Source: Escherichia phage Rac-SA53. Taken from it: 52,291 nucleotides of DNA. The position numbers were made by a program. The stretch lies in sequence record KU052037.1. One strand, given 5' to 3'. Of the stretch, positions 36,001 through 39,000 are shown piece after piece (position 1 is the stretch's first letter; every line of letters begins with the position of its first letter).

Positions 36001-39000
36001 GCAAAAGAAGGGGTCGAATTGTCCTTTCAGGGCAATATCACGGAGTTTTTACCCGCCATGACGGGAGCCGTGCAGTCGCCGCAGCCATACATGATTTTAC
36101 AGGCGCGTGTTCATCTGCTGCGTAGCCAGGCGCTGGGAAAACAATTCAAGGCGCAATGGGAAAAGAACGCCACGATCGGCGACGCAAAAGTGTATAGCGA
36201 CAGCACGGTGTTCGGTGACTTCGATATCTATAACACGGCGATCACCAACGTGCAGGATATGACCTTCGCCGGGGGCGAGCCGGGTGTGGCCATCACCATT
36301 ACCGGTACGTATTACATCAACTCTGAAATGTGGGATCTGGTATGAAAATCTCCCGAAATCTGAATCTGATTATTCCTGTCCGGACAGAAAAGGGTAATGG
36401 CTGGATCCATGCCACGCCGATCAGCAAAGAGGTGTTTAAAGAGCATTTCTTCATTCTGAGTAAAACTTTTTCTGCCATTTTTTCAGAAGGTCTTGGCGTC
36501 GTTTCGGGGCCGCGTATCGCCTGCCTTATGCTGGAACGGATCTCCTCAGATATGAATATTTGGGATGGCGAAAAGGGCGTTCGCAATACGCTCGTGAATG
36601 AAATCATTCGCCTTGCGAATCTGGTTTACCCAGTCGAAGGGAAAGGCTACGACACGATCCCGCTTGATATGGCGCTAGATCGCGGCATCGTTGAATTTGA
36701 TGATGTGGCAGGTGAACTCGTTTTTTTTACATGCGTCTCGTCGATAAACACACCGGAGCAGACGGAACAGATGATGCTGGTAGTCAGTGGAATGTGGAAC
36801 AGTCGCACTTCATCCTTGAGTCTTACGGAATGGATTGCTTCATTGCCGACATTGAAGCCTGTCGCCAGTTCTGGCGCGACGGCGAGCACGTTATCAGCGA
36901 CATCCTCGACTACTCAGCCGGAGACGGATTCAGCGACATCTGGGCAAATTCCGGTCTGAATGTAAAAACAGCAGCTCAGTTTCGTGAGCTGCGTAAATGC
37001 ACGACGCCGGGAGGGGTATTGAATGTCAGGTAATCAGATGCCAGTTCTGACACTGGACGTTAATGAAGAACACCTTAAGCGACTTGAGGCGATATTTGAA
37101 AAGTATCGCAATGGGCTGATGATTGGCCCTGCGGGGACGCCGCTTAAAATACCTTCAAATACAGGTCTAGGAGGTGGCACGCAGCAGGCAACCGCGGGCG
37201 GAGAAGCCAATCAGGCTCCCAGGAAACCATCTTCACCTGCGCCCACCGATGGACGTTTAAGGGATGAAAAAGGGCGCTTTGTCGGTAGCGGAAAAACACC
37301 TGATTCGCTGGTGAGCAACTATAAAGGTCGCGGCGAAACGATGTTTGATAAGTATCTCAGTAGTCTGGGTAAAAACGCTCAGGGGACGCTGAAAACTTAC
37401 AAGCAGATCAATTCAACGCTTAAAACGACCAATTCACGACTGAAAACGCTGTTTAAAACGACTGTATCCTGGGGGAGCAAAATTGCGGCGCTTGGTTCGG
37501 TCGGTGCTTTCGGGTACGGATATATGGCGAGCAAGGTTGCAGCGCAATACAGCGTGGCTCAGGGGCTGGGTATGGAAACCGCACAGATGCAGGCCGCACG
37601 TGCCACCTATTCGCCATATTTTTCTGGCACAGAAGAACTGGTTCAGCATCTGGCGAACGCACAGAAAAATCCGAATGATCCAAACTATGCTGGTCTGGTC
37701 AGTCTTGGAATTGATCCTCGAGATGGTGCAGCAAAGAATCTGCCCAAACTTATGAGCGCGCTTGCATCTCTCGTTAAGCAATATAAAGGTTCAGGACTTA
37801 CTCAGGGGATTCTCAACGGGCAAGGGCTTGGATTTGTTGATGTCGCGACAACTAACCAGGTGGAAGCGAATCTGGACAAGATCCCCCAACTGAATGAGAA
37901 ATTTACATCAAATACCAGGTTGCTCGGTGCTTACCTCACGCCAGCTATGCAGTCAGGTTATCAGGACACGGTGAGTAACCTGATGGTAAATGGAAACAGA
38001 ATATCAAATTCTTGGTATGCAGCTCTCGCCAGATATAACCCACTAATCACAGGTGCATCTGATGGGCTGACATCCAATATTGAAGGTTTTCTGAATGGTG
38101 GAAATTTTCAGAAAATTCTCACTGAGGCTGGCGAAGGGTTGGAGAAACTTGGTAAGTGGCTGAATAGCGAACAATTTAAAAATGATCTTGACGATTTTTC
38201 TCTGGCGGTGAGCCGGATTGCAAAAGCAATATGGTCAGCTATCAAATGGATCGGTGGGGAAGATAAATATCTCCCCGGAACCGGAGTTGGTGCTGAACAG
38301 GCAGATCCAGTTCTTGCGGCATTTGGGAATAAATATCTCGGTGGTGCGTTGCCGGGAGCAAACCCGATGACAAATCAGTATACGGGGGAGTTTTATAAAC
38401 AGGATGATGTATATAAAAATTACCGTATGCCTAATGATTTAAAGAGAAATATTCAGAACTTTGTAGAGCAAGCCAATAATACTTATCGACTTCCTAAAAA
38501 TATGATGTCAGCTATCGCGGAAGTTGAATCTTCGTGGAATCCTCTGGCAAGAGGAACTCCAGATGAAAAAGGTAGATTCGCTAAGGGGTTGTGGCAATTC
38601 TGGGATAGCACCGCAAAACAGTATGGTCTGGTGGGTGATGATGTTTATGACCCAAATAAATCCACTCTTGCGGCTGGCCGCTTTTTAAATGATCTGAATC
38701 GGCGTTATAAAGGCGATGTGGCAAAAATGCTTACGGCATATAACGGAGGTCGTATTGATAGAGATGGAAATCTAAGTTTGAGAATGGAGACTGTAAAATA
38801 TTTAATTAAATTATTGCCTCAGATTCAGGGAGCCCTAGATCAACACCCTGGTATTATGAGTCAGCTAAGAAATGCCAGAGATAACCTTCAGGGTGCTGGC
38901 AAAAATGCCCGCGCAATAATTGAGCTTCAGGTGCGACAATCGCCGGGTTCCGACATACTGGCACAACTCGCCGGAACGCAACAAATACCGGGGTAAAAGA

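What the first reader, a model, noticed from the sequence alone, without database searches (positions are those of the whole stretch)
36715..37033. Programmed -1 frameshift in the tail assembly chaperone
A T-run (gttttttttac, 36719..36729) lies exactly where a -1 frame ORF (36731..37033) opens and runs to the tape-measure start. This is the conserved G/GT-type arrangement and supports the chaperone and tape-measure assignments.
Basis: partly seen in the sequence, partly recalled or inferred. Interest (0 to 1): 0.4.

Follow-up and report, generated by a model that had tools for sequence, protein, structure and literature searches.

The report
Mid-gene frameshift in phage tail chaperone
An E. 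coli prophage most likely makes two tail-assembly helper proteins from one gene by letting a few ribosomes slip back one base on a run of T's; this is an ordinary phage trick, but here the slip is in the middle of the gene, so about 230 bases encode two conserved proteins in two reading frames.

Summary
A T8 run (36721-36728) forms an in-frame heptamer T_TTT_TTT (36722-36728). It lies 6 nt after the -1 frame opens (TGA at 36713-36715). That frame runs to TAA 37031-37033, 11 nt into the tape-measure ORF (ATG 37023).

In 26 representative relatives (~28-65% aa identity), 23 keep T_TTT_TTY at the same Phe-Phe codon pair. All 26 keep an open, protein-conserved -1 frame reaching the tape-measure gene. 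Four of them have no ATG/GTG/TTG anywhere in that frame. A G/GT-type programmed -1 frameshift is therefore well supported. It gives G (205 aa) and GT (230 aa).

The arrangement is not canonical. The zero frame continues 76 codons past the slip site (231 nt to the end of its stop). Annotated chaperone frameshifts average 26-36 nt. Both frames in the overlap are conserved beyond what the other frame imposes. The confidently predicted G fold extends about 45 residues past the slip site, so GT lacks the C-terminal part of G.

No database annotates the family or the frameshift. No frameshift product has been demonstrated. Ribosomal and transcriptional slippage cannot be separated here.

The parts
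34553..35890 (+). Tail sheath gene (445 aa). This is context and shows a contractile-tail module.
   Evidence: phrog_205 'tail sheath', E = 2.2e-54.
35902..36345 (+). Putative tail tube gene (147 aa). Its stop overlaps the G start (ATGA at 36342-36345).
   Evidence: Assigned by position directly after the sheath gene and by size only. It matches phrog_6566, function unknown. No profile similarity to the Mu or P2 tube proteins or to PDB sequences.
36342..36959 (+). G: the zero-frame chaperone-like ORF, 205 aa, 22.3 kDa, the product of standard translation.
   Evidence: full-length match to phrog_11810, function unknown. AlphaFold2 model has pLDDT >90 for residues 11-170 and a disordered Ser/Thr-rich tail at 177-205. 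RefSeq calls it 'hypothetical protein'.
36713..36715 (+). TGA stop in the -1 frame. The -1 frame is open from 36716, which sets the 5' limit for any shift.
   Evidence: Direct reading of the sequence.
36722..36728 (+). Slippery heptamer T_TTT_TTT, within the T8 run 36721-36728 and followed by A at 36729. The P- and A-site Phe codons are 36723-36725 and 36726-36728.
   Evidence: It is the only canonical heptamer in the overlap. T_TTT_TTY is kept in phase in 23 of 26 representative relatives. Phe codons at this site are TTT in 49 of 51 cases, against 44 of 112 elsewhere in the same genes. The 3rd base of the preceding codon is T in 23 of 26, across Val/Ala/Thr/Cys codons. The next base is A in 25 of 26.
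36728..37033 (+). T segment read in the -1 frame: 101 codons (YMRLVDKH...GVLNVR) plus TAA at 37031-37033.
   Evidence: conserved core consensus lYGv..F.aDid.gR..ywr.g...Ldwas.eGF...efRqRhl. It matches phrog_14324. Relatives L004, L090, L091 and L092 have no ATG/GTG/TTG anywhere in this frame.
36342..37033 (+). Predicted GT fusion: codons 36342-36728 (129 aa) joined to 36728-37030 (101 aa). Total 230 aa, 25.7 kDa. The junction reads ...AGELVFF|YMRLVD...
   Evidence: Built from the sequence. Its existence as a protein is inferred, not shown.
36729..36959 (+). Dual-coding overlap of 231 nt. The zero frame encodes the G-specific C-terminus and the -1 frame encodes the linker and core of T.
   Evidence: Nucleotide diversity by codon position, open-frame simulation, synonymous-shuffle similarity test, and the confident AlphaFold2 fold of zero-frame residues 130-170.
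37023..38996 (+). Probable tape measure protein (657 aa) with an SLT lytic transglycosylase domain at residues 481-578. Its Shine-Dalgarno sequence GGAGGGG is at 37010-37016.
   Evidence: Pfam SLT E = 1.2e-20. Full-length match to phrog_7694. The homolog in Klebsiella phage RothD is annotated as tape measure protein. It lies upstream of a baseplate hub gene (phrog_196).

Best explanation
This is a programmed -1 ribosomal frameshift of the phage G/GT (tail assembly chaperone) type.

Ribosomes start at ATG 36342, which is coupled to the stop of the upstream putative tube gene. Most read straight through to TGA 36957-36959 and make G (205 aa). When tRNA-Phe occupies both the P site (UUU 36723-36725) and the A site (UUU 36726-36728), a minority of ribosomes slip back one base on U_UUU_UUU. 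Both tRNAs can re-pair perfectly in the new frame. Those ribosomes continue in the -1 frame (UAC AUG CGU ...) to TAA 37031-37033 and make GT (230 aa). GT consists of G residues 1-129 plus a 101-residue T segment.

By analogy with lambda gpG/gpGT and P2 gpE/gpE+E', the shared N-terminal part would bind the tape measure protein encoded immediately downstream. The T domain would recruit the tube protein. The fixed slip frequency would set the G:GT ratio.

What is shown: the sequence anatomy, its conservation, and selection on the nucleotide motif and on both reading frames. What is inferred: that slippage occurs, its efficiency (probably low, because U_UUU_UUU was less shift-prone than A_AAA_AAG in E. 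coli constructs and no stimulatory RNA structure was found), and the chaperone function.

This family differs from the canonical case because the branch point lies inside a predicted helix of the G fold. G and GT therefore have alternative C-terminal modules, encoded by the same ~230 nt in two frames.
For: 1. Gene order is sheath, putative tube, G/T, SLT-bearing tape-measure-like ORF, baseplate hub.
2. The overlap contains a single canonical in-phase heptamer, 6 nt after the -1 frame opens.
3. 95 related loci were fetched. Almost all have a T7-T8 run at the same aligned Phe-Phe codon pair, with a -1 frame running to the tape-measure gene. In 26 representatives at about 28-65% identity, T_TTT_TTY is in phase in 23.
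4. There is nucleotide-level selection on the motif. At the site, 49 of 51 Phe codons are TTT, against 39% TTT elsewhere in the same genes. The preceding third-position base is T in 23 of 26 although the amino acid varies (V, A, T, C). The following base is A in 25 of 26.
5. The run is always in the phase that ribosomal slippage needs: T7 variants and T_TTT_TTC in L057 keep X_XXY_YYZ.
6. The -1 product is conserved as a protein from the first residue after the slip. It is more similar between distant relatives than a synonymous-shuffle null, with z = 3-16.
7. L004, L090, L091 and L092 have no ATG, GTG or TTG anywhere in the 107-115-codon -1 frame, so it cannot be initiated on its own.
8. No internal promoter-like site was found between 35800 and 37090.
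9. The two-frame form is the norm. 205-aa proteins sit on hundreds of contigs each (814 and 676 for two clusters), whereas directly fused forms sit on 1-6 contigs each.
10. P2, also a contractile-tail phage, uses the near-identical T_TTT_TTG at the equivalent place.
Against: No protein or RNA evidence was available; the frameshift is inferred from sequence alone.

No stimulatory element was found. The downstream RNA folds no better than shuffled sequence (z = +1.2 and +2.0). The consensus structure across relatives is only -3.5 kcal/mol without convincing covariation. There is no Rfam match. The upstream GGTGA is not conserved in distant relatives.

U_UUU_UUU was less shift-prone than A_AAA_AAG in E. 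coli constructs (PMC5009743). A T8 run could instead, or in addition, cause RNA polymerase slippage.

Four of the 26 representatives lack a canonical heptamer: A_TTT_TTT in L072, G_TTT_TTT in L092 (also in its near-identical relative L093, which is outside the set), and TCT TTT A in L071.

G has no detectable sequence or fold similarity to known tail assembly chaperones. The slip site is about 6-9 times farther from the in-frame stop than the averages for annotated chaperone frameshifts.
Confidence: 0.8

Rival explanations
1. Transcriptional slippage rather than ribosomal slippage. RNA polymerase stutters on the T8 run (A8 in the template) and adds one U to a fraction of transcripts. Standard translation of those U9 mRNAs gives exactly the same GT protein (V-F-F-Y-M...).
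For: Most relatives have T8 (15 of 26 representatives), one base longer than the heptamer requires. Productive transcriptional realignment at slippage-prone runs is established in bacteria (PMC5009743). From my own knowledge, rU:dA hybrids are the weakest, so such runs slip readily. No ribosomal stimulator was found. The run length is evidently unstable: T9 versions exist in L059, L062 and L063.
Against: Seven of 26 representatives have T7, L057 has T7 followed by C (in-phase T_TTT_TTC), and L072 and L092 have only T6. From my own knowledge, polymerase slippage falls steeply on runs that short. The run always ends at codon position 3 of the second Phe codon. That phase matters for tandem tRNA re-pairing but not for a polymerase, although the conserved Phe-Phe residues also constrain the phase. 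The homologous system in P2 (T_TTT_TTG, only six T's) is annotated as a -1 translational frameshift.
Confidence: 0.1
2. Two independent overlapping genes. The T ORF is translated on its own from ATG 36731, as some gene callers annotate it, and no fusion protein is made.
For: The window and its close clade have ATG as the second codon after the T-run (YM...). PHROGs and many metagenome gene calls list the -1 ORF as a stand-alone 72-145-aa protein.
Against: There is no Shine-Dalgarno-like motif 5-13 nt upstream of that ATG. The ATG is absent in all relatives outside the close clade. Four representatives have no ATG, GTG or TTG anywhere in the conserved -1 ORF. This model does not explain selection on the T-run nucleotides.
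Confidence: 0.04
3. Artefact or decay. A homopolymer sequencing error or a real indel in the T-run has split one gene, so the true product is a single G-N/T protein and the zero-frame tail is meaningless.
For: Homopolymers are error-prone. A few contigs and database proteins do show direct fusions: T9 in L059, L062 and L063, and P0239, P0268 and P0281.
Against: The two-frame arrangement holds in almost all of the 95 related loci fetched, from isolates, phages and metagenomes, and in 26 of 26 representatives. The zero-frame tail stays open for 54-76 codons in every lineage, although the probability of that per lineage, given only the -1 protein, is 0.01-0.44. Its similarity between distant relatives exceeds the hitch-hiking null, with z = 3.5-9 in 11 of 12 pairs. 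Its residues 130-170 are modelled with pLDDT >= 90 as part of the G fold. Several of the fused database proteins switch frame at other positions or carry extra frameshifts, which is typical of assembly errors.
Confidence: 0.03

Closest known systems
Bacteriophage P2 gpE / gpE+E' (-1 frameshift, contractile-tail phage)
   Same: The gene order is the same: sheath (FI), tube (FII), E/E', tape measure (T). The slippery sequence is almost the same (T_TTT_TTG in P2, T_TTT_TTT here). The -1 extension ends at or just inside the tape-measure gene.
   Different: In P2 the annotated shift site is 20 nt before the E stop and the overlap can be at most 37 nt, so E+E' contains nearly all of E. Here the shift is 231 nt before the end of the stop and GT lacks G's last 76 residues. 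There is no detectable sequence similarity (hhalign probability <1%). P2 E is 91 aa; this G is 205 aa.
Bacteriophage lambda gpG / gpGT (Levin, Hendrix & Casjens 1993; Xu, Hendrix & Duda 2004, 2013, 2014; as summarised in PMC5009743)
   Same: Two products come from one start by a low-level -1 shift between the tail shaft gene and the tape-measure gene. The shift-derived T domain has no start of its own. From my own knowledge, lambda also needs no strong stimulatory RNA structure.
   Different: [quoted passage not shown] Lambda has a non-contractile tail. There is no sequence similarity. The functions (tape-measure binding, tube recruitment, absence from virions) are demonstrated for lambda and only inferred here.
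Phage Mu gp41 / frameshift product Mu_56 (record note: verified -2 frameshift, PMID 15469818)
   Same: It has the same position after the sheath and tube genes of a contractile tail and before the tape-measure gene, and it makes two chaperone products.
   Different: Mu uses a -2 shift into the other frame, and its overlap is at most 38 nt. There is no sequence similarity.
HIV-1 gag/gag-pol -1 frameshift (U_UUU_UUA); the overlap details are from my own knowledge
   Same: It works alike in architecture: a U-rich heptamer well upstream of the zero-frame stop, so that about 200 nt are read in two frames and the two products have different C-terminal parts.
   Different: It is a eukaryotic viral system with a downstream stimulatory stem-loop, unrelated proteins and an unrelated purpose. 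It is an analogy of layout only, not a family relationship.

Membership tests
G/GT-type tail assembly chaperone frameshift (Xu, Hendrix & Duda 2004) | Two overlapping ORFs lie between the major tail/tube gene and the tape measure gene. | tested here: met
   The order is sheath (phrog_205), a 147-aa ORF, G/T, then a 657-aa SLT-bearing ORF whose homolog is annotated as tape measure in RothD, then a baseplate hub. The tube assignment rests on position only.
G/GT-type tail assembly chaperone frameshift | A slippery sequence lies in the overlap, in the correct phase for tandem tRNA re-pairing. | tested here: met
   T_TTT_TTT at 36722-36728 is the only canonical heptamer in the 244-nt overlap.
G/GT-type tail assembly chaperone frameshift | The downstream ORF lacks its own translation start and is reachable only by the shift. 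| tested here: met
   The window has an ATG but no Shine-Dalgarno-like motif. L004, L090, L091 and L092 have no ATG, GTG or TTG in the whole conserved -1 ORF.
G/GT-type tail assembly chaperone frameshift | The two-ORF-plus-slip-site arrangement is conserved among relatives despite sequence divergence. | tested here: met
   95 related loci were fetched. In 26 representatives down to about 28% identity, all keep the open -1 frame and 23 keep the in-phase T_TTT_TTY heptamer.
G/GT-type tail assembly chaperone frameshift | The shift occurs near the 3' end of G, so that GT is essentially all of G plus T. | tested here: not met
   The slip is 231 nt (76 codons plus the stop) upstream of the end of the G stop, and 54-76 codons upstream in the representative relatives. 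The comparison values are a mean of 26 nt in 2,476 SEA-PHAGES cases and 36 nt in the 28 Xu phages (PMC10885494), and maximum overlaps of 64, 37 and 38 nt in lambda, P2 and Mu. The AlphaFold2 model places the slip inside helix 119-135, with structured residues continuing to about 170.
G/GT-type tail assembly chaperone frameshift | Two proteins are made in a fixed ratio, both are required for tail assembly, and neither is in the virion. | not testable with these tools
   This needs expression, mass-spectrometry and genetic experiments.
Known tail assembly chaperone protein families (Pfam/NCBIfam chaperone models; lambda gpG, P2 gpE, Mu gp41; solved chaperone structures) | Sequence or fold similarity to a recognised chaperone. 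| tested here: not met
Programmed transcriptional slippage sites | A homopolymer long enough for RNA polymerase realignment, whose phase is irrelevant. | tested here: inconclusive
   The window and 15 of 26 representatives have T8. Others keep only T7 or T6, and always in the ribosomal phase. Transcript data are needed.

The most novel reading that the evidence does not exclude
The family is not a 'G plus extension' system but a C-terminal module switch. The shared part is only G residues 1-129. The zero frame then completes the G fold (two helices and a strand, residues ~130-170) and adds a disordered Ser/Thr-rich tail with a conserved C-terminal SS-[IV]-P-x motif. The -1 frame replaces all of that with the T domain. 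The two alternative modules are encoded by the same ~230 nt, and both are under purifying selection. If the G-specific module mediates G-G or G-tape-measure packing, GT would be a structurally distinct subunit (for example a cap or nucleator) and not merely a G with a handle. That would be a different way of setting up the chaperone/tube hand-off from the lambda model.
Probability: 0.4. Interest if true: 0.55.

Novelty: new variant of a known kind. Interest (0 to 1): 0.42.

Why it matters
The practical consequence is for annotation. This prophage family occurs in 92 of 5,426 complete E. coli genomes, including strain W, and in Salmonella, Citrobacter, Klebsiella phages and metagenomes. Its chaperone gene is labelled 'hypothetical protein', and the T ORF or frameshift join is missing from RefSeq and from the four phage records inspected. 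No Pfam or NCBIfam model covers it.

The biological interest is that it extends the well-known G/GT rule to a case where the shift is mid-domain. It provides a clean bacterial-virus example of a long (54-76 codon) overlap with selection visible in both frames. This can be tested in an ordinary E. coli lysogen. It also shows why frameshift predictors trained on short slip-to-stop distances would miss such sites (PMC10885494 gives long distance as a cause of missed calls).

Tried and rejected
1. Stimulatory RNA structure. I folded 36729-36810 and 36700-36860; both are less stable than shuffled sequence. RNAalifold on 11 relatives gave -3.5 kcal/mol, a 5-bp stem with a 21-nt loop and no real covariation. 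Rfam at E <= 1 gave nothing. I rejected this as evidence.

2. Upstream Shine-Dalgarno-like stimulator. AGGTGA at 36710-36715 is 6 nt before the heptamer. It is present only where the residues are Gly-Glu and is absent in the 'VENAL' and 'VLSSL' relatives. It is not conserved.

3. Structure of the GT fusion. I therefore could not test whether T complements the truncated G fold.

5. Profile comparisons. G against lambda G, P2 E and Mu gp41, and the putative tube against the Mu and P2 tube proteins and the PDB, were all negative.

6. Literature. I found no paper mentioning a frameshift or chaperone for Chronis, PdC23, RothC/D or pPE4.

7. Fused database proteins as natural GT-only variants. Most switch frame at different positions or carry additional frameshifts, so I treat them as assembly errors or rare mutants.

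8. An internal promoter for T. None was found.
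Full report
**1. What is in the sequence**

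The region lies in the late tail module of a prophage.
- The 801 bases 36300-37100 are 100% identical to the E. coli SA53-3 chromosome. Related copies occur in 92 of 5,426 complete E. coli genomes, including strain W.
- The gene order on the + strand is:
  - sheath, 34553-35890 (phrog_205, E = 2e-54);
  - a 147-aa ORF, 35902-36345, taken as the tube protein by position only;
  - a 205-aa ORF, 36342-36959;
  - a 657-aa ORF, 37023-38996, with an SLT transglycosylase domain. Its homolog in Klebsiella phage RothD is annotated as tape measure;
  - baseplate genes.
- The T-run is eight T's at 36721-36728.
- In the frame of the 205-aa ORF the run reads GTT TTT TTT ACA. This puts a canonical X_XXY_YYZ heptamer, T_TTT_TTT, at 36722-36728.
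- The -1 frame is closed by TGA at 36713-36715. It is open from 36716 to TAA 37031-37033, 11 nt into the 657-aa ORF.
- This heptamer is the only canonical one in the 244-nt overlap.

**2. Is it more than chance?**

The run alone is not.
- T7 occurs 23 times in the window against 26.6 +/- 6.4 in shuffles.
- A canonical heptamer somewhere in an 81-codon overlap is expected about 0.3 times (my arithmetic).

The evidence is comparative. I fetched the homologous locus from four deposited phages and from public contig collections (95 related loci in all):
- Actinobacillus phage pPE4 (91% nt identity);
- Klebsiella phages RothD and Chronis and Pantoea phage PdC23 (about 36% aa identity);
- 80 IMG/VR contigs and 11 bacterial genomes or MAGs.

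Almost every locus has a T7 or T8 run at the same aligned Phe-Phe codon pair. In 24 of 26 representatives the -1 frame opens 12-42 nt upstream of it. That frame runs to the start of the next long gene.

In 26 representatives (identity to the window about 28-65%):
- Phe codons at the site are TTT in 49 of 51 cases. Elsewhere in the same genes they are TTT in 44 of 112.
- The third base of the preceding codon is T in 23 of 26, although the amino acid varies (Val, Ala, Thr, Cys).
- The next base is A in 25 of 26.
- Variants keep the phase: seven have T7 (xxT TTT TTT) and L057 has T_TTT_TTC.
- Exceptions are L072 (A_TTT_TTT), L092 (G_TTT_TTT; its near-identical relative L093 is the same) and L071 (TCT TTT A).

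This is selection on nucleotides, not only on the Phe-Phe residues.

**3. The -1 product is a real protein without a start of its own**
- The -1 translation aligns across all representatives. It has a conserved core of about 75 residues with consensus lYGv..F.aDid.gR..ywr.g...Ldwas.eGF...efRqRhl.
- Between distant pairs it is much more similar than a null in which the zero-frame protein is kept and its codons are synonymously reshuffled. z ranges from 3 to 16.
- The window and its close clade have an ATG just after the run, but no Shine-Dalgarno-like motif precedes it.
- Outside the close clade that ATG is missing. L004, L090, L091 and L092 have no ATG, GTG or TTG anywhere in the 107-115-codon frame.
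- No promoter-like site lies inside the region.

Independent expression is therefore very unlikely, and access by frame change from the upstream ORF is the simplest reading.

**4. Not an error or a broken gene**
- 205-aa zero-frame proteins occur on hundreds of contigs each (814 and 676 for two clusters). Directly fused forms of about 227 aa occur on 1-6 contigs each.
- Several of those fused forms switch frame at other positions or carry extra frameshifts, as assembly errors do.
- Three IMG/VR loci (L059, L062, L063) have T9, which puts T in frame with G's N-terminus. This shows that the run length is labile but rarely differs from the norm.

**5. The unusual part: a mid-gene slip and a long dual-coding overlap**

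In lambda, P2 and Mu the alternative frame opens only 64, 37 and 38 nt before the G-type stop. [quoted passage not shown] The PRFect study reports a mean slip-to-stop distance of 26 nt in 2,476 annotated actinophage chaperone genes and 36 nt in the 28 phages of Xu et al. (PMC10885494). Here the distance is 231 nt, and the representative relatives have 54-76 zero-frame codons after the slip.

Four observations indicate that the zero-frame tail is coding:
- It stays open in every lineage. The probability of that, given only the -1 protein and random synonymous codons, is 0.01-0.44 per lineage.
- It aligns between distant relatives (motif ...W/Y....TS....T.[FY]..SLPTS, with C-terminal SS[IV]P-x). 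In 11 of 12 distant pairs its score exceeds the hitch-hiking null with z = 3.5-9 (alignment).
- Among 42-47 distinct close relatives, third-position diversity is 0.33 in the single-coding N-terminal part. It falls to 0.145 in the overlap. The -1 frame's third position (the zero frame's second position) is also low, at 0.149. Neither frame has free synonymous sites.
- An AlphaFold2 model of G from a 40-sequence alignment has pLDDT of at least 90 for residues 11-170. The slip site (F128-F129) lies inside helix 119-135. Two more helices and a strand (138-152, 155-157, 161-167) follow it. Residues 177-205 are disordered.

GT (230 aa, 25.7 kDa) therefore shares only residues 1-129 with G (205 aa, 22.3 kDa). 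It replaces the rest of the fold with a variable acidic/Gly-rich linker and the T domain.

**6. Mechanism**

The best-supported mechanism is tandem -1 slippage of two tRNA-Phe on U_UUU_UUU.
- I found no stimulatory element. Downstream RNA is not more stable than shuffles. There is no conserved structure and no Rfam match. The upstream GGTGA is not conserved.
- U_UUU_UUU was less shift-prone than A_AAA_AAG in E. coli constructs. This would fit a low GT:G ratio. The lambda ratio of G to GT is about 30:1.
- RNA polymerase slippage on T8 would give the same protein and cannot be excluded. The invariant codon phase of the run, and the relatives with only T6-T7, favour the ribosome.
- Function is inferred by analogy: tape-measure binding by the shared N-terminus, tube recruitment by T, and absence of both from virions.

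**7. Comparison with what is known**
- The closest analogue is P2 gpE/gpE+E'. It has the same gene order in a contractile-tail phage and uses T_TTT_TTG.
- It therefore works like a G/GT system and meets the positional and recoding criteria. It does not meet the 'shift near the 3' end' feature, and it is not a detectable homologue of known chaperones.
- Public records call G 'hypothetical protein'. RefSeq and three of the four phage records inspected omit the T ORF; the RothD record calls only a 35-aa fragment of it. I found no paper describing the frameshift.

**8. Verdict**

It is an ordinary kind of phage feature, found here in an unannotated family and with an atypical layout: a mid-domain branch point and about 230 nt of dual coding. 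I rate it a new variant of a known kind, of moderate interest.

Noticed in passing
window 36971-36992: A perfect 8-bp inverted repeat, GCAGCTCA-gtttcg-TGAGCTGC, gives an mRNA hairpin of about -15.9 kcal/mol in a 42-nt context. It lies in the T-only coding stretch, 12 nt after the G stop and 31 nt before the tape-measure ATG. It is kept in L057 with a 9-bp stem and a different loop, but not in distant relatives. No T-run follows it on the + strand, so it is not a + strand terminator. It might affect mRNA stability or tape-measure translation.
   Followed up: partly
L059, L062 and L063 (T-run at locus positions 2880-2890); proteins P0239, P0268, P0281: A few relatives have a T-run one base longer (T9), or a protein junction (V-F-Y) that implies a run two bases shorter. 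Either change puts the T domain directly in frame with G's N-terminus. These are either homopolymer assembly errors or rare natural length variants that would make only GT.
   Followed up: partly
L001 (PP818812.1, 'Actinobacillus phage vB_Apl-pPE4'): This deposited phage is 91% identical at the DNA level to the E. coli prophage across the tube/G/T region. Its closest protein relatives are from Escherichia, Salmonella and Citrobacter. The stated Actinobacillus pleuropneumoniae host looks doubtful.
   Followed up: no
L096 (NZ_CP076279.1) and L001-L004 annotations: RefSeq/PGAP and the depositors annotate G as 'hypothetical protein'. They leave the 64-nt gap to the tape-measure gene unexplained. 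In RothD only a 35-aa fragment of the -1 ORF is called. The sheath and putative tube are also 'hypothetical', so the whole tail module of this widespread prophage family is effectively unannotated.
   Followed up: partly
window 37023-38996: The probable tape measure protein carries a C-terminal SLT lytic transglycosylase domain (residues 481-578, Pfam E = 1.2e-20). The tail-length ruler would therefore double as the peptidoglycan-cutting enzyme.
   Followed up: no
window 24700-52291, + strand: Within the roughly 27 kb of + strand late structural genes, the run at 36721 is the only T7-or-longer run on the coding strand. The other + strand runs lie at or before 23457. This fits the reported under-representation of such runs in coding sequence (PMC5009743).
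   Followed up: no
window 1-7100: The long minus-strand ORFs at the left end (823-2058, 2814-3917 and 3917-7063, the last of 1,048 aa) look like host chromosome rather than prophage. The window probably spans a prophage/host junction. No tRNA gene was found anywhere in the window.
   Followed up: no
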